A DNA stretch of 64,000 nucleotides, from assembly GCA_000004985.1 (NCBI GenBank), contig GG738861.1; one strand, given 5' to 3'. A program made the position numbers and the translations under genes. Each line of letters begins with the position of its first letter. Position 1 is the stretch's first letter. This document shows, one piece after another, positions 1,042 through 57,906 of this stretch. Source of the DNA: Naegleria gruberi. Taxonomy: Eukaryota. The notes beneath the pieces were generated by a model. That model did not search any database. It was not told the DNA's origin and saw only the letters and a list, made by a program, of their open reading frames with translations.

Positions 1042-2107
1042 ATGCAACGATTTCAAAGGGACGGTCCCCCTCAATCACCACCAGCTTCATCGCGAGGAAG
1101 GGATGCCCAACAACAGCAACAACAACAACACGATACCAGCATGGAGTCTCCGTTCGATGAAGAAGAATTACAATTATTGTATTCATGGGTCGATGAAATA
1201 CCCTTATCAAGGCCAAAAAAGAATATTGCCAGAGATTTTAGTGATGGTGTAATGATGGCCGAAGTGGTCAAACATTTCTTCCCTAAACTTGTCGATCTTC
1301 ATAATTATAGCTCTACTTCAAGTTCCAAACAAAAAATCTACAATTGGAACACCCTAGATCGTAAGTACTATCCTCAATATTTAATGGCATATACATTAAT
1401 ACCTGTTTTCAGAAAAGGTTTTTCAGAAAATTGGATTTTCTGTTGACCCAAAGGAAATTGATGACATGGTCAAGTGTAAGCCTTTTGCAGCAGAAAGAAT
1501 GCTCAAAACCTTTCAAATCAAAGTAACTCAGATACAACAACGAAAAGCTACTCAACAAGTAACCCAACCAACAAAGCCAGCAACAAGCAATACATCAAAA
1601 GACTCTATTCCATCATCTTCAGCCTCAAGTAGAGTAATAACCAAGAGACCTGCATCTGCCTCTTCTGTAAGAACTAGGGAACAATCAAGACCTTCATCAG
1701 CTCATATCAATCGTGGTGGAGAACAAAAAGTGGAGAGACCAACATTAGTGGAGAGAAAAAACTTGGTCGAAAGGAATGAAAGGAAAAGTGACATGCATTT
1801 GGAGAGAGTGGAAAGAGACTTTGATGAAGATATGGATGCAGTCTCTCATCACAGTAGTAGGGCAAGAAATAGAGATCATTTCCTGGAACAACAACCACCA
1901 ATCGATGATGAAACTTTGTACAATAACAAACAACACATGAATATGCCTGTCTTTGAAGAATCGGAATTGATAAAGGAAAAAGATGCTAAAATTCATGAAT
2001 TAGAGGAGACAGTCAAACTGTTAGAATCAAAGATTAACAAATTACAATTATTAATTCGTTTGAAAGATTCCAAAATTCAAGCTCTCAGCAATAAAATCAA
2101 AACCTAG
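1042..2107 (+). CDS. SPEF1: SPEF1/CLAMP-like calponin-homology (DUF1042) flagellar or microtubule-associated protein (two exons)
   Basis: LLYSWVDEIPLSRPKKNIARDFSDGVMMAEVVKHFFPKLVDLHNYSSTSSSKQKIYNWNTLD matches the SPEF1 CH-domain signature (LSRPKRN..RDFSDGVL.AE..KHYFPKLVELHNY). ORF 1042..1446 and ORF 1466..2107 join across a 52-nt GTAAGT...CAG intron (1361..1412) to continue ...QKVFQKIGFSVDPKEIDDMVKCKPFAAERML. The C-terminus is a coiled coil. Exons are 1042..1360 and 1413..2107. Confidence 0.7.
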
Positions 2108-2455
2108 GACAGAACATTGCAATAAAAAAATGCTTACTTCACTACACAAGTTAAAATTCGGCTGTCCATCCATTCTCAACAAGACATCAAGTGGTAATTG
2201 TTGGATAACTTCAACAACGAATAGCAATAGGTAAGGAAAATTAGATAAATCTAGAAGTGTTGACTGCAATTACAATTAAATTGTGTGGATTCTTTTTCGT
2301 TGGTTTCGTTGCTATTGTTTGTCGTTTTCCGAAATGAATTGAAATCATCTTGAAAAAAATAACCTCAACACAACAGACGACAACATCTTGTTGGATTTTT
2401 AAAGACTTTTACATCAACAACAAATCGTTCTTTTTCACAACAAACAATTAAAACA

Positions 2456-3226
2456 ATGGCCTCACTCGATCAACAACAATTAGTTTTCATGGAATCCGAA
2501 GACTGTATTCTCGTTACAGAAAATGATGAAGAAAAGGGAAGAGCTTCCAAGAAGCATTGTCATATCTGGACAAATATTGATGCTACAGTTGGAGATGACA
2601 CTGTTCCTTGTCTTCATAGAGCCTTCTCTGTCTTTTTATTCAACTCTAAGGGACAATTGTTGCTTCAACAAAGAGCCACTGAAAAGATTACCTTCCCAGA
2701 CTATTGGACCAACACTTGTTGTTCACATCCTCTCTTTAACTTGGATTCTGAACGTGAAATGAAGGGACAAATGGGTGTTCGTAATGCTGCTCATAGAAAG
2801 CTTGAACACGAACTCGGAATTCCACAATCTGCTATCGATCCACAAAGATTTAATTATTTGACTAGAATTCTCTACAAGTCACCAAGTGGTAATCCACAAG
2901 ATTCTCAATGGGGTGAACATGAAGTTGACTATTGTTTGTTCTACGTTTTGAATGCTGAAGAAGATGCTCAATTTGATGAATATTTAAAGTCAATGAATTT
3001 GAATGAAGTTCGTGCTGTCAAATTTGTTGATGCCAGTGAATTGTTACACATGTTGGATGTTTTGAATGAAGAAAAGAAGGAAATTGAAATTACTCCATGG
3101 TTCAAATTGATTTGTAGAAGATTCTTATTCAAGTGGTGGGATGCTCTTTTGGTTGGAATGAAGAGTGGAGATTTCTCTGCTTTGGATGCCTTGAAAGATT
3201 TTACCACTGTTCACAAATTAAACTAA
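2456..3226 (+). CDS. IDI1: Isopentenyl-diphosphate delta-isomerase, type 1 (Nudix fold)
   Basis: A single exon of 256 aa. HRAFSVFLFNSKGQLLLQQRATEKITFPDYWTNTCCSHP...SQWGEHEVDY contains the IDI type-1 catalytic Cys/Glu motifs (TNTCCSHP and WGEHE). Confidence 0.9.
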   Translation: MASLDQQQLVFMESEDCILVTENDEEKGRASKKHCHIWTNIDATVGDDTVPCLHRAFSVFLFNSKGQLLLQQRATEKITFPDYWTNTCCSHPLFNLDSEREMKGQMGVRNAAHRKLEHELGIPQSAIDPQRFNYLTRILYKSPSGNPQDSQWGEHEVDYCLFYVLNAEEDAQFDEYLKSMNLNEVRAVKFVDASELLHMLDVLNEEKKEIEITPWFKLICRRFLFKWWDALLVGMKSGDFSALDALKDFTTVHKLN

Positions 3227-56412: not shown

Positions 56413-56478
56413 AGAATTGGATTGATTCACAATCTCTCGTACCTAGATTAAAATAAATAATTGACAATATTTACATAT

Positions 56479-57906
56479 TTACAAGTCTGTTTCTTGCTCA
56501 TCGTCTGAAAGTGTTGGAATGGGCTTGAGCTTTCTCCTTTTCCTTTCCAAAAGTTTTTCTCCATTGCTATAAGTTACTTCACCCATATATTTATCTGCTT
56601 TATCCATTAGTGTATCAATTTCATGCTTTTCAAAATCCAATTTTAAAAAGTTCCAAACTGGTATATCCTTAGAAGAGGAATCGTGAGATATTGGTAGTGA
56701 AACATAGATCAGTTGAACAGAGTGCCCATACTTTGAATAGGACAAGACATATTCTCGTAGTATTTCAGAGATTTTGAAATACATCAATGGTTTGTAAAAC
56801 AAGTCAGATTTCCTCGAAAGACCCAAAGCTCCAAATCTTCCCTTAAATCGAACAACACAAACTATATGTCTGTAAACTCTCTGGGTCATTGTTGTTTGAA
56901 AAAAGACACTAAACCTGTCAACATCTTCAAAATCTTGTGTACAAAAAAGGGAGAGAAAAGTACCCTCAACGCATCTAATTGGAAGGCAATCACTGACAAC
57001 TTCCTTTGCCGTCTGAATGATACTCTTCAAGGGTCTCAATCTTGTGATATCAAAAAAGTGTTGCTCTATATAGTTATACTCGAAAGCTGATATAAAATTC
57101 TGGATTTTCAATAATTTGGTGAACATGCTTTGGTTCTTGTCAGATAAATTTGGATATTTAGGCCTAGGAACCTCTGGAAGATCGGTATATGGATGATTTT
57201 GAAAAGGGTTTACAATCAATTCCTTATGAACTGTTAAATCTTGATTCGTCTCTTTGAACAATAACTTGATTAAATTCTCCTTAGATTTTCTTGGTGAAGC
57301 TAATTGATAACAATCATCGTCCTCCTCTTCCAGCATTGAAGTATGAGTCGGAGATACCTGATGAGTATTGAGCAGTGTTGGCCTCTGTTTAACTTGTTTT
57401 GTTGTTTTCCTAGATGTTGAGCTACTTGGGGTTGGAAGTGAGGAATTCAAATTCCTTTGAGAATTAAAATTTGATCTTGATCGTCTGTGGTTGGGAGAAA
57501 TTGGTTGATTCGTAACCATTACATCCAAAAATCGATGAGAAGTCGAATGGGATCTCTTTGAAAGAGCAGTAGAAACTAATTGCTGATCCGAAGAGTCATT
57601 CTTCTTAATTCTTTTTCTCTCCGGTGAAGATCCTCCAATTTTCGGAAGTAACCCATGGCATTCCTTACTCTTCTTTAAAGGGGAAGTAGAGCTTGAATTT
57701 CCTTGCTGATGATTTGTCTGCTGCACTTGTTGCGAATGATGAGGATCAGCTTGTTTTTGTTGATTAATACAATGCTGATGAGGATGTGGTGATGCTGATG
57801 CCAAACACTGTTGTATGGCCTTAACAGTCGAAGATCCCTCCGAAGAAAATCGATTCTGTTGGTGCTGCTGATGAACCTGCGAATTGGGTCGTAAGGTCTT
57901 TTGCAT
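56479..57906 (-). CDS. VASH: Vasohibin-like tubulin tyrosine carboxypeptidase (transglutaminase-like cysteine protease)
   Basis: The C-terminal half LPIRCVEGTFLSLFCT...VYRHIVCVVRFKGRFGALGLSRKSDLFYKP...LIYVSLPISHD aligns with the human VASH1 catalytic region (LPIKCLEAVILGIYLT...YFRHIVLGVNFAGRYGALGMSRREDLMYKP...SVSHD). The N-terminal half is low-complexity and rich in Gln, His and Ser. Confidence 0.75.
   Translation of the reverse strand: MQKTLRPNSQVHQQHQQNRFSSEGSSTVKAIQQCLASASPHPHQHCINQQKQADPHHSQQVQQTNHQQGNSSSTSPLKKSKECHGLLPKIGGSSPERKRIKKNDSSDQQLVSTALSKRSHSTSHRFLDVMVTNQPISPNHRRSRSNFNSQRNLNSSLPTPSSSTSRKTTKQVKQRPTLLNTHQVSPTHTSMLEEEDDDCYQLASPRKSKENLIKLLFKETNQDLTVHKELIVNPFQNHPYTDLPEVPRPKYPNLSDKNQSMFTKLLKIQNFISAFEYNYIEQHFFDITRLRPLKSIIQTAKEVVSDCLPIRCVEGTFLSLFCTQDFEDVDRFSVFFQTTMTQRVYRHIVCVVRFKGRFGALGLSRKSDLFYKPLMYFKISEILREYVLSYSKYGHSVQLIYVSLPISHDSSSKDIPVWNFLKLDFEKHEIDTLMDKADKYMGEVTYSNGEKLLERKRRKLKPIPTLSDDEQETDL

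What the first reader, a model, noticed from the sequence alone, without database searches (positions are those of the whole stretch)
1042..57906. Flagellar and microtubule toolkit: SPEF1-like CH-domain protein, vasohibin-like tubulin detyrosinase and kinesin-14
Three genes here (1042..2107, 56479..57906, 26476..29760) encode families tied to axonemal or stable microtubules, and the EF-hand fragment at 1..69 may be centrin-like. SPEF1 and vasohibin are generally absent from aflagellate fungi, dictyostelids and yeasts. Their presence, together with aerobic-mitochondrion genes and a PPR protein, constrains the source to a flagellated or amoeboflagellate protist. A vasohibin outside animals is itself worth note, as tubulin detyrosination machinery.
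Basis: partly seen in the sequence, partly recalled or inferred. Interest (0 to 1): 0.5.

Follow-up and report, generated by a model that had tools for sequence, protein, structure and literature searches.

The report
Three known Naegleria microtubule genes
The window is from the amoeboflagellate Naegleria gruberi and does encode a SPEF1, a vasohibin and a kinesin-14, but all three are unlinked genes already on record; the one open point is that Naegleria alpha-tubulin has no terminal tyrosine, so the vasohibin probably trims beta-tubulin.

Summary
ORFs at 1042..2107 (+), 26476..29760 (-) and 56479..57906 (-) encode a SPEF1 orthologue (CH_2 PF06294, E=4e-36), a C-terminal-motor kinesin-14 (PF00225, 1e-99) and a vasohibin (PF14822, 2e-50). 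The vasohibin keeps Cys312-His347-Ser364/Leu369, matching human C169-H204-S221/L226.

The source is Naegleria gruberi NEG-M, scaffold_17, so the "amoeboflagellate" inference was right.

None of this is new:
- The kinesin is XP_002678643.1, annotated "kinesin-14".
- SPEF1 is NAEGRDRAFT_3580, flagellar-motility gene FM24, induced about 160-fold in differentiation.
- The only N. gruberi vasohibin in Kennard et al. 2024 is AKG0058, induced about 216-fold.

Vasohibins outside animals are widespread. They have been tested in trypanosomatids; in Chlamydomonas, disrupting the VashL locus impaired detyrosination.

The genes lie 24-27 kb apart among more than 30 unrelated genes. The SPEF1 and vasohibin orthologues sit on different contigs in N. 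lovaniensis and Willaertia. This is a theme, not a cluster. The 22-residue EF-hand fragment cannot be assigned.

One twist remains. Naegleria alpha-tubulins lack a C-terminal tyrosine and only flagellar beta-tubulin has one. The likely substrate is therefore beta-tubulin, which is untested. Interest is low to moderate.

The parts
1042..1360 (+). SPEF1 orthologue (NAEGRDRAFT_3580 / FM24), exon 1. It encodes the N-terminal low-complexity leader and the first two thirds of the CH_2 domain. The JGI model starts at the second ATG, position 1141 (Met34).
   Evidence: The Tetrahymena SPEF1A seam-binding residues R25, K28, R32 and S62 (PMC11642885) correspond to R57, K60, R64 and S94, all conserved (alignment).
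1361..1412 (+). 52-nt intron (GTAAGT...TTTTCAG) inside the CH domain.
   Evidence: Removing it restores the reading frame and extends the CH_2 match from 62 to 94 of 96 model positions. The JGI protein uses the same junction.
1413..2107 (+). SPEF1 exon 2. It encodes the end of the CH domain, a disordered linker and the conserved C-terminal coiled-coil (dimerisation) helix. It may contain a further in-frame 117-nt GT..AG intron at 1713..1829.
   Evidence: The C-terminal helix EKDAKIHELEETVKLLESKINKLQLLIRLKDSKIQAL matches Tetrahymena SPEF1 (second matched stretch) and is largely invariant across SPEF1 orthologues. The JGI model and the N. fowleri and N. lovaniensis orthologues lack the 39 residues encoded by 1713..1829.
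26476..29760 (-). Kinesin-14 (XP_002678643.1, 1094 aa). It has a basic S/T/N/K-rich tail (pI 9.5), a coiled-coil stalk, the kinesin-14 neck RKSLHNLVEDMKGNIRV, and a C-terminal motor carrying GQTGSGKT, SSRSH and DLAGSE.
   Evidence: The 19 best solved relatives are all kinesin-14: KCBP 3.6e-80, KIFC3 2.7e-67, Kar3 and Ncd.
56479..57906 (-). Vasohibin (tubulinyl-Tyr carboxypeptidase family), 475 aa. Residues 1-235 form a basic S/Q/K/H-rich disordered N-terminus. Residues about 240-441 form the transglutaminase-like core with Cys312, His347, Ser364, Arg365 and Leu369.
   Evidence: It is probably AKG0058 of Kennard et al. 2024.
1..69 (+). 3' end of an EF-hand protein gene (last EF-hand plus stop codon), cut by the window edge. 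It is not part of any system with the other three genes.
   Evidence: Calmodulins (3e-7 to 1e-4) and centrins (about 3.5e-5) match about equally well.

Best explanation
These are three independent, unlinked genes on Naegleria gruberi scaffold_17. Each is an ordinary orthologue of an ancient eukaryotic microtubule-associated family.

1. SPEF1 (FM24). An N-terminal CH domain binds microtubules and a C-terminal helix dimerises. By homology it stabilises and pairs the central-pair microtubules of the 9+2 flagellum. It is switched on when amoebae turn into flagellates.

2. Vasohibin. This is a transglutaminase-like cysteine carboxypeptidase with a complete active site. It is switched on about 200-fold together with flagellar tubulin. 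Naegleria alpha-tubulin ends in Gln and only flagellar beta-tubulin ends in Tyr, so its most likely job is to remove the C-terminal Tyr of beta-tubulin in flagellar, basal-body or cytoplasmic microtubules of the flagellate. That substrate assignment is an inference.

3. Kinesin-14. This is a minus-end-directed motor with a C-terminal motor domain and a basic microtubule-binding tail, which cross-links and slides microtubules. By elimination it is more likely one of the three differentiation-induced paralogues than the remaining mitotic one.

Shown here: the identities, the conserved residues, the predicted fold and the source organism. Taken from the literature: expression and tubulin termini. 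Inferred: substrates and cellular roles.
For: Source organism: exact matches to N. gruberi XP_002678643.1 and XP_002678525.1 on a 507,294-bp scaffold. SPEF1 corresponds to NAEGRDRAFT_3580 on the same contig, placed at scaffold_17:225141-226098 in Data S2.

SPEF1:
- Pfam CH_2 at 4e-36.
- Best solved relatives are the 213-aa 'Sperm flagellar protein' chain of entry 9nw3 (taken to be Tetrahymena SPEF1A) at 4.5e-48, with both the CH domain and the C-terminal helix matched, and human SPEF1 at 6.6e-32. FAP178 scores 1.6e-9 and SPATA4 3.5e-7.
- The seam-contact residues are kept.
- Named homologues come only from lineages with flagellated stages.
- Differentiation log2FC is 4.8, 7.0, 7.4 and 6.4.

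Vasohibin:
- PF14822 at 2e-50 and human VASH1 at 1.5e-36.
- Y277, C312, H347, S364, R365 and L369 are invariant in 58 diverse vasohibins. They equal human Y134, C169, H204, S221, R222 and L226 (residue roles from PMC6937246).
- The AlphaFold2 model has pLDDT 89.3 and pTM 0.81. Its top 23 Foldseek matches are VASH1/2 at E~1e-22 with target-normalised TM 0.78-0.88.
- AKG0058 has log2FC 7.76 in differentiation.
- Alpha-tubulin ends in Gln. Only flagellar beta-tubulins end in Tyr, and there is no YL1/2 staining.
- Trypanosomatid VASH cleaves beta-tubulin as well as alpha-tubulin, without SVBP.

Kinesin:
-.
- Naegleria has five paralogues, two mitotic and three differentiation-induced. AKG0002 is mitotic and lies on scaffold_12, so it is excluded. 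Of the four remaining, three are differentiation-induced.

No cluster:
- More than 30 unrelated genes lie between the three.
- VASH and SPEF1 orthologues are on different contigs in N. lovaniensis (527,646 vs 466,434 bp) and in Willaertia (376,936 vs 145,346 bp).
Against: - No biochemical evidence exists for detyrosination of any Naegleria tubulin. I could not obtain the beta-tubulin tail sequence, so I could not check whether it resembles a VASH substrate (-E-x-Y).
- AKG0058 is also flagged as up in mitosis (about 12.7-fold), although no mitotic tubulin ends in Tyr.
- The link between AKG0058 and this ORF is by elimination, as the only N. gruberi vasohibin listed. Its coordinates are NA in the stored table.
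- I could not map the kinesin to its JGI identifier, so its expression class is a prior of 3 in 4, not a result.
- SVBP dependence is unknown. Only some of the human SVBP-contact residues are kept.
Confidence: 0.85

Rival explanations
1. The three genes form a physically or functionally linked 'flagellar toolkit' island, co-located for co-regulation.
For: Two or three of about 37 genes in one 64-kb window are microtubule-related. P(>=3) is about 0.05 under a generous gene pool. SPEF1 and the vasohibin are both strongly induced in differentiation.
Against: - The genes are 24.4 and 26.7 kb apart and on different strands.
- They are separated by FtsH, an NRPS-like reductase, PPR, GCN5, serpin, Mic60, a proteasome ATPase, an FNT transporter, AMP deaminase and other genes.
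- SPEF1 and VASH orthologues lie on different contigs in N. lovaniensis and Willaertia.
- Hundreds of differentiation-induced genes are scattered over all scaffolds.
- The grouping was chosen post hoc.
Confidence: 0.03
2. The Naegleria vasohibin does not act on beta-tubulin. It either processes a non-tubulin substrate ending in Tyr or Phe, or trims the unusual two-residue-longer alpha-tubulin tail in some non-canonical way.
For: - Alpha-tubulin lacks the canonical Tyr.
- The gene is also induced in mitosis, when no Tyr-terminated tubulin is expressed.
- The basic L34 region differs slightly from human: K145->T288 and K146->R289.
Against: - Every residue shown to matter for Tyr-carboxylate recognition and catalysis is kept.
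- Induction is about 17-fold stronger in differentiation than in mitosis and coincides with synthesis of Tyr-ending flagellar beta-tubulin.
- The related trypanosomatid enzymes are shown to cleave beta-tubulin Tyr.
Confidence: 0.2
3. The vasohibin is a decaying relic or pseudo-enzyme left over after alpha-tubulin lost its terminal Tyr.
For: The canonical substrate is missing. The gene is absent from the NCBI/UniProt N. gruberi protein set held by the collection.
Against: - The 475-codon ORF is intact.
- All 12 columns that are invariant across the family are kept.
- Orthologues at 53-67% identity occur in N. lovaniensis, Willaertia and environmental heteroloboseans.
- Regulated induction is about 216-fold.
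- Its absence from the protein set is an annotation gap that Kennard et al. repaired.
Confidence: 0.04
4. This kinesin-14 is the second mitotic (spindle) paralogue, and so is unrelated to flagella.
For: Kinesin-14s are classically spindle motors. Two of the five Naegleria paralogues are mitosis-specific.
Against: - One mitotic paralogue is AKG0002, which lies elsewhere, leaving 1 in 4.
- One of the mitotic paralogues has an acidic tail, whereas this protein's tail is basic with pI 9.5.
- The motor is closest to KCBP and KIFC3 rather than to Ncd or KIFC1.
Confidence: 0.2

Closest known systems
Trypanosomatid vasohibins (TbVASH Tb927.11.1060, LmVASH)
   Same: Single-copy vasohibin in a discoban flagellate with the same catalytic residues. 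It acts in an organism whose beta-tubulin carries a C-terminal Tyr. Those enzymes detyrosinate beta-tubulin and work without SVBP (PMC11761321).
   Different: Trypanosomatid alpha-tubulin also ends in Tyr, so the enzyme has two substrates. In Naegleria only beta-tubulin can be a substrate. Activity of the Naegleria enzyme is untested. It carries a 235-aa basic, disordered N-terminal extension.
Human VASH1/VASH2-SVBP (tubulinyl-Tyr carboxypeptidases; PDB 6J8F, 6OCF, 6K81, 6WSL)
   Same: 26-31% identity over the core in the structure-based alignments, the same predicted fold (target-normalised TM 0.78-0.88), and C169, H204, S221, R222, L226 and Y134 all conserved.
   Different: The human enzymes need SVBP and act on alpha-tubulin -EEY. 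The SVBP-contact residues are only partly kept here (Q133->E, H136->Y, T137->I, A164->C). No SVBP search was possible.
SPEF1/CLAMP (Tetrahymena SPEF1A in PDB 9NW3; human SPEF1 in 2EE7 and 9NTM)
   Same: CH_2 domain plus C-terminal dimerisation helix. The four beta-tubulin contact residues are conserved. It is induced with flagellum assembly.
   Different: Longer protein (337 aa, or 298 aa if the second intron is real, or 265 aa from the JGI start, against 213-236 aa), with a Q-rich leader and a long S/T/R-rich linker. Localisation in Naegleria is untested.
Kinesin-14 family (KCBP, KIFC3, Kar3, Ncd)
   Same: C-terminal motor, the kinesin-14 neck motif, and a coiled-coil stalk plus basic tail. 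Annotated as kinesin-14 in RefSeq.
   Different: It lacks the MyTH4-FERM and calmodulin-binding helix of KCBP, with no such Pfam hits and only 16 residues after the Pfam motor-domain match. Its role, spindle or flagellate cytoskeleton, is not established.

Membership tests
Vasohibin (PF14822; tubulinyl-Tyr carboxypeptidase) | Significant match to the family profile over the whole catalytic core | tested here: met
   PF14822 at E=2e-50, 171.8 bits against a cutoff of 24, model positions 42-241 of 245. Human VASH1 at 1.5e-36.
Vasohibin (PF14822; tubulinyl-Tyr carboxypeptidase) | Catalytic Cys-His plus Ser221/Leu226 (non-canonical triad) | tested here: met
   C312, H347, S364 and L369 align with human C169, H204, S221 and L226. 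They are invariant in 58 vasohibins (residue roles from PMC6937246).
Vasohibin (PF14822; tubulinyl-Tyr carboxypeptidase) | Substrate-binding residues needed for activity (K168, R222/R223, K145/K146/R148; also Y134) | tested here: met
   R311, R365/K366, T288/R289/R291 and Y277. All are kept or conservatively replaced except K145->T.
Vasohibin (PF14822; tubulinyl-Tyr carboxypeptidase) | Vasohibin fold rather than another transglutaminase-like protease | tested here: met
   AlphaFold2 model with pLDDT 89.3. Foldseek ranks 1-23 are all VASH1/2 at E~1e-22. The next matches, CPR-C4 and LapG, score 1e-5 or worse.
Vasohibin (PF14822; tubulinyl-Tyr carboxypeptidase) | A tubulin substrate ending in Tyr is available | tested here: inconclusive
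   From the literature only. Alpha-tubulin ends in Gln. Flagellar beta-tubulin ends in Tyr. I could not retrieve the tail sequence.
Vasohibin (PF14822; tubulinyl-Tyr carboxypeptidase) | Detyrosinase activity; SVBP partner | not testable with these tools
   This needs an enzyme assay.
SPEF1 (CH_2 / DUF1042, PF06294) | N-terminal CH_2 domain scoring above the EB1/calponin-type CH model | tested here: met
   CH_2 at 123.4 bits, CAMSAP_CH at 67.7 bits, and generic CH at 22.9 bits, which is below its cutoff of 26.
SPEF1 (CH_2 / DUF1042, PF06294) | C-terminal coiled-coil dimerisation helix and a short single-domain architecture (not SPEF2, SPATA4 or CFAP47) | tested here: met
   A second matched stretch, residues 287-335, against Tetrahymena SPEF1 residues 159-207. 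The helix is largely invariant in orthologues. SPEF1 proteins score 4.5e-48 and 6.6e-32, against SPATA4 at 3.5e-7 and FAP178 at 1.6e-9.
SPEF1 (CH_2 / DUF1042, PF06294) | Microtubule-seam contact residues (Tetrahymena R25, K28, R32, S62; human R31) | tested here: met
   R57, K60, R64 and S94 are conserved in the ungapped alignment.
SPEF1 (CH_2 / DUF1042, PF06294) | Flagellar expression or localisation | tested here: inconclusive
   Transcript is induced about 164-fold in differentiation and the gene is labelled FM24. Protein localisation is untested.
Kinesin-14 | Motor domain at the C-terminus with intact P-loop, switch I and switch II | tested here: met
   Motor domain at residues 741-1078 of 1094 (Pfam 772-1109 of the 1125-aa ORF). 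GQTGSGKT at 817, SSRSH at 946 and DLAGSE at 985.
Kinesin-14 | Kinesin-14 neck immediately N-terminal to the motor; closest relatives are kinesin-14s | tested here: met
   RKSLHNLVEDMKGNIRV aligns with the KCBP neck RKRYYNTIEDMKGKIRV. The 19 best PDB sequences are all kinesin-14. The first non-14 hit, KIF3B, scores 2.3e-57 against 3.6e-80 for KCBP. PF16796 at 1.5e-36. RefSeq name is kinesin-14.
Kinesin-14 | Minus-end-directed motility | not testable with these tools
   This needs a motility assay.
Centrin (for the fragment at 1..69) | Sequence closer to centrins than to calmodulins or other EF-hand proteins | tested here: inconclusive
   Only 22 residues are available. The best calmodulin hit scores 3.4e-7 and the centrins about 3.5e-5.

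The most novel reading that the evidence does not exclude
In Naegleria, and Heterolobosea generally, the tubulin tyrosination/detyrosination cycle has moved entirely from alpha- to beta-tubulin. The vasohibin encoded at 56479..57906 would then be a beta-tubulin-only detyrosinase, induced about 200-fold with flagellar tubulin. It would mark flagellar and basal-body microtubules through the beta-tail, possibly without SVBP. I found no paper in the searchable library that links the Naegleria vasohibin to the beta-tubulin tyrosine.
Probability: 0.45. Interest if true: 0.55.

Novelty: already known. Interest (0 to 1): 0.25.

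Why it matters
As a genome observation it matters little. It re-identifies three catalogued genes of a sequenced model protist, and it correctly infers the organism's lifestyle from gene content.

The useful by-product is a sharpened, testable question for the tubulin-code field. Naegleria is the organism behind the multi-tubulin hypothesis. Its alpha-tubulins lack the terminal tyrosine, its flagellar beta-tubulin has one, and it keeps a fully intact, differentiation-induced vasohibin.

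If that enzyme detyrosinates beta-tubulin, Naegleria would be a natural system in which the tyrosination signal is carried only by the beta subunit. That would separate the role of the mark from the identity of the subunit.

There is also a practical annotation note. The vasohibin is missing from the public N. gruberi protein set, and the SPEF1 model there is partial.

Tried and rejected
- Gene cluster or 'toolkit island': rejected. The intervening genes are unrelated, and the orthologues are unlinked in N. lovaniensis and Willaertia.
- More flagellar genes in the window: I scanned about 40 ORFs with Pfam, at lenient thresholds for those with no hit, and searched the PDB with the coiled-coil neighbour of the kinesin. 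Nothing was found.
- Mapping the kinesin to one of jgi_65526, jgi_66196, jgi_75257 or jgi_78071 to read its expression: failed. The stored copy of Data S2 is truncated and the look-up of encoding contigs had no record.
- Confirming the coordinates of AKG0058: failed. They are NA in Data S2 and the GFF is truncated.
- Obtaining the N. gruberi beta-tubulin tail sequence and testing for a true TTL or an SVBP homologue: not possible.
- Deciding between centrin and calmodulin for 1..69: 22 residues are not enough.
- Pseudo-enzyme reading of the vasohibin: rejected on residue conservation and regulated expression.

Full report
**Source and observation.** The window is AT-rich (about 34% GC), gene-dense eukaryotic DNA with few, short introns. 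Two of its proteins are identical to RefSeq proteins of Naegleria gruberi NEG-M on a 507,294-bp scaffold. ORF 26479..29760 (-) equals XP_002678643.1 'kinesin-14', and 2456..3223 (+) equals XP_002678525.1, isopentenyl-diphosphate isomerase. The SPEF1-like gene corresponds to NAEGRDRAFT_3580 on the same contig. A published table places that gene at scaffold_17:225141-226098.

**SPEF1.** The two ORFs at 1042..1446 and 1466..2107 are exons of one gene, joined by removing a 52-nt GTAAGT...CAG intron at 1361..1412.
- The spliced 337-aa protein matches Pfam CH_2 (PF06294) at E=4e-36 over 94 of 96 model positions. It scores far above CAMSAP_CH, and the generic CH model that also covers EB1 and calponin falls below its cutoff at 22.9 bits.
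- Its best solved relatives are SPEF1 proteins. The 213-aa 'Sperm flagellar protein' chain of entry 9nw3, which I take to be Tetrahymena SPEF1A, scores 4.5e-48 and matches both the CH domain and the C-terminal helix. Human SPEF1 scores 6.6e-32. FAP178 and SPATA4 are about 20 or more orders of magnitude weaker than the human protein.
- The four residues through which Tetrahymena SPEF1A contacts beta-tubulin at the microtubule seam are R25, K28, R32 and S62 (PMC11642885). They correspond to R57, K60, R64 and S94 here and are all conserved.
- The C-terminal dimerisation helix is largely invariant across orthologues from heteroloboseans, chromerids, oomycetes and green algae.
- The JGI model starts at Met34 and uses the same first intron. 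It also removes a further in-frame 117 nt (1713..1829). The N. fowleri and N. lovaniensis orthologues lack those 39 residues, so that second intron is plausible but unproven.
- The gene is labelled FM24 (flagellar-motility set). It is induced with log2FC 4.8, 7.0, 7.4 and 6.4 during the amoeba-to-flagellate differentiation, which is about 164-fold at the peak.

**Vasohibin.** The uninterrupted 475-codon ORF at 56479..57906 (-) matches PF14822 at 2e-50 and human VASH1 at 1.5e-36.
- In an alignment of 58 vasohibins from animals, chytrids, algae, oomycetes, a jakobid and heteroloboseans, twelve columns are invariant. They include Y277, C312, H347, S364, R365 and L369.
- With a constant offset of 143, these are human Y134, C169, H204, S221, R222 and L226. 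That set covers the catalytic Cys-His, the Ser originally predicted for the triad, the Leu whose carbonyl completes it, and residues whose mutation abolishes activity (PMC6937246).
- K168 is replaced by Arg. The K145/K146/R148 patch becomes T/R/R.
- An AlphaFold2 model of residues 193-475 is confident (pLDDT 89.3, pTM 0.81). Its 23 best matches among solved structures are all VASH1 or VASH2 (E~1e-22, target-normalised TM 0.78-0.88). Other transglutaminase-like proteases (CPR-C4, LapG) score 1e-5 or worse.
- The first 235 residues are a basic (pI 10), S/Q/K/H-rich and presumably disordered extension. The N. lovaniensis orthologue also has one.

**Is a non-animal vasohibin notable?** No.
- A profile search returns vasohibins from Pedinophyceae, Chlamydomonas, Volvox, Tetraselmis, Trebouxia, Pythium, Hondaea, Ectocarpus, Pavlovales, Bigelowiella, Andalucia, chytrids, Allomyces and others.
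- The enzyme has been characterised in T. brucei and Leishmania, where a single, SVBP-independent VASH detyrosinates both alpha- and beta-tubulin (PMC11761321).
- In Chlamydomonas, a mutant of the VashL locus (described there as the Vash2-SVBP homologue) has impaired detyrosination, which disturbs IFT train sorting (PMC11770126).
- For Naegleria itself, Kennard et al. 2024 (bioRxiv 10.1101/2024.01.08.573270) list one N. gruberi vasohibin, AKG0058. It is one of 68 manually repaired gene models.
- AKG0058 rises by log2FC 2.6, 4.4, 7.8 and 5.8 during differentiation, and by up to 3.7 in the mitosis experiment.
- In their 20-species survey, vasohibin is present in Batrachochytrium, Chlamydomonas, human, N. 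fowleri, N. gruberi, Phytophthora, Salpingoeca and T. brucei. It is absent from yeasts, Dictyostelium and Arabidopsis, but also from Tetrahymena, Giardia, Trichomonas, Drosophila, Toxoplasma and Plasmodium. Presence thus points to a flagellated lineage, but absence says little.
- No N. gruberi vasohibin is in the large protein collection. This fits the original annotation having missed or mis-modelled the gene.

[quoted passage not shown] 1988).
- None of the four mitotic tubulins ends in Tyr.
- Flagellates and mitotic amoebae do not stain with YL1/2 (Velle et al. 2022).
- The canonical vasohibin substrate is therefore absent. Given an intact active site, co-induction with flagellar tubulin and the trypanosomatid precedent for beta-tubulin cleavage, the most likely substrate is the beta-tubulin C-terminal Tyr.
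- This is an inference. Kennard et al. do not mention tyrosination at all (0 occurrences). I found no paper in the library connecting the Naegleria vasohibin with beta-tubulin.
- The modest mitotic induction remains unexplained.
- Dependence on SVBP cannot be judged. Of the human SVBP-contact residues, L101, F141 and P166 are kept. Q133, H136, T137 and A164 are changed, and the W74/W78 helix is not alignable.

**Kinesin-14.**
- The 1094-aa protein has its motor at the C-terminus (PF00225 at 1.1e-99, PF16796 at 1.5e-36), with an intact P-loop, switch I and switch II.
- The kinesin-14 neck RKSLHNLVEDMKGNIRV sits directly before the motor. The 19 best solved relatives are all kinesin-14: KCBP 3.6e-80, KIFC3 2.7e-67, Kar3 and Ncd. 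The first non-14 kinesin appears at 2.3e-57.
- The protein lacks the accessory domains of KCBP. Its tail is basic, with pI 9.5.
- Kinesin-14 is not an axonemal or stable-microtubule family as such. In Naegleria, two of five paralogues are mitosis-specific and three are differentiation-specific.
- One mitotic paralogue (AKG0002, scaffold_12) is excluded. By elimination this gene has a prior of about 3 in 4 of being differentiation-induced. I could not map it to its JGI identifier to confirm.

**No cluster.**
- The three genes are 24.4 and 26.7 kb apart.
- Between and around them lie Rpr2, IDI, an FtsH-type protease, ataxin-10, a serine carboxypeptidase, an NRPS-like reductase, an OFD1/Tpa1 oxygenase, Bax inhibitor, a PPR protein, GCN5, a serpin, a PSP protein, a Rab, Mic60, a proteasome ATPase, an FNT transporter, AMP deaminase, MetAP and a FYVE protein.
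- None of the other ORFs scanned shows a flagellar family.
- The VASH and SPEF1 orthologues sit on different contigs in N. lovaniensis and in Willaertia magna.
- With about 37 genes in the window, three hits from a pool of about 343 microtubule and flagellar genes has P~0.05. That count is 163 from Kennard et al. plus about 180 FM genes from my memory of Fritz-Laylin et al. 2010, in a genome of 15,727 genes, also from memory. The probability is unremarkable for a grouping chosen after reading.

**EF-hand fragment.** Bases 1..69 encode ISMADKDKDGKINIDDFIRIMK*, the fourth EF-hand of a calmodulin-superfamily protein. Calmodulins and centrins match about equally well, so no assignment is possible.

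**Verdict.** The organism was inferred correctly. The claims of novelty and of a 'toolkit' do not hold. Everything here is already in databases or the literature. What is left is one untested but well-posed hypothesis, that the Naegleria vasohibin is a beta-tubulin detyrosinase, plus two small annotation corrections.

Noticed in passing
window 56479..57906 (-): The vasohibin ORF has no counterpart in the NCBI/UniProt N. gruberi protein set held by the protein collection, although the N. lovaniensis and Willaertia orthologues are there. It appears only as the repaired model AKG0058 in a 2024 preprint, with NA coordinates in the stored table.
   Followed up: partly
AKG0058 expression (Data S2 of 10.1101/2024.01.08.573270): The vasohibin is also flagged as up in mitosis (about 12.7-fold at 30-40 min), although none of the mitotic tubulins ends in tyrosine. 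Either there is another substrate or this is a by-product of the heat-shock synchrony.
   Followed up: no
window 1713..1829 (+): Possible second, in-frame 117-nt GT..AG intron in the SPEF1 gene. The JGI model splices it out, and the N. fowleri and N. lovaniensis orthologues lack the 39 residues. The start codon is also ambiguous (1042 or 1141).
   Followed up: partly
window 185..466 and 528..695 (+): Two-exon gene for an RNase P/MRP Rpr2/Rpp21-type zinc-ribbon subunit. The two halves of PF04032 match the two ORFs, at 3.4e-5 and 8.5e-6.
   Followed up: partly
window 24985..26383 (-): A serpin gene is split over two overlapping ORFs in different frames, covering Pfam Serpin positions 14-181 and 187-369. 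This implies a short intron or a frameshift.
   Followed up: no
window 11151..14318 (+): A 1055-aa NRPS-like protein with AMP-binding, phosphopantetheine-binding and NAD_binding_4 domains. This is the architecture of alpha-aminoadipate (Lys2) and carboxylic-acid reductases.
   Followed up: no
window 42865..43986 (-): Formate/nitrite transporter family protein (PF01226, 1.4e-60) with an N-terminal extension of about 160 aa. The family is mostly prokaryotic, which fits Naegleria's facultative anaerobic metabolism.
   Followed up: no
window 29905..31389 (-): A 494-aa coiled-coil protein immediately upstream of the kinesin-14 on the same strand. It has no Pfam family and no solved relative, and its function is unknown.
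   Followed up: partly
window 35271..36216 (+): Multi-exon Rab-type small GTPase with an N-rich low-complexity intron region and an unusual C-terminus, ...GGGCPCGGK.
   Followed up: no
window 53614..55006 (-): Methionine-aminopeptidase-like gene (Peptidase_M24) spread over three consecutive ORFs, which implies short introns or frame changes.
   Followed up: no
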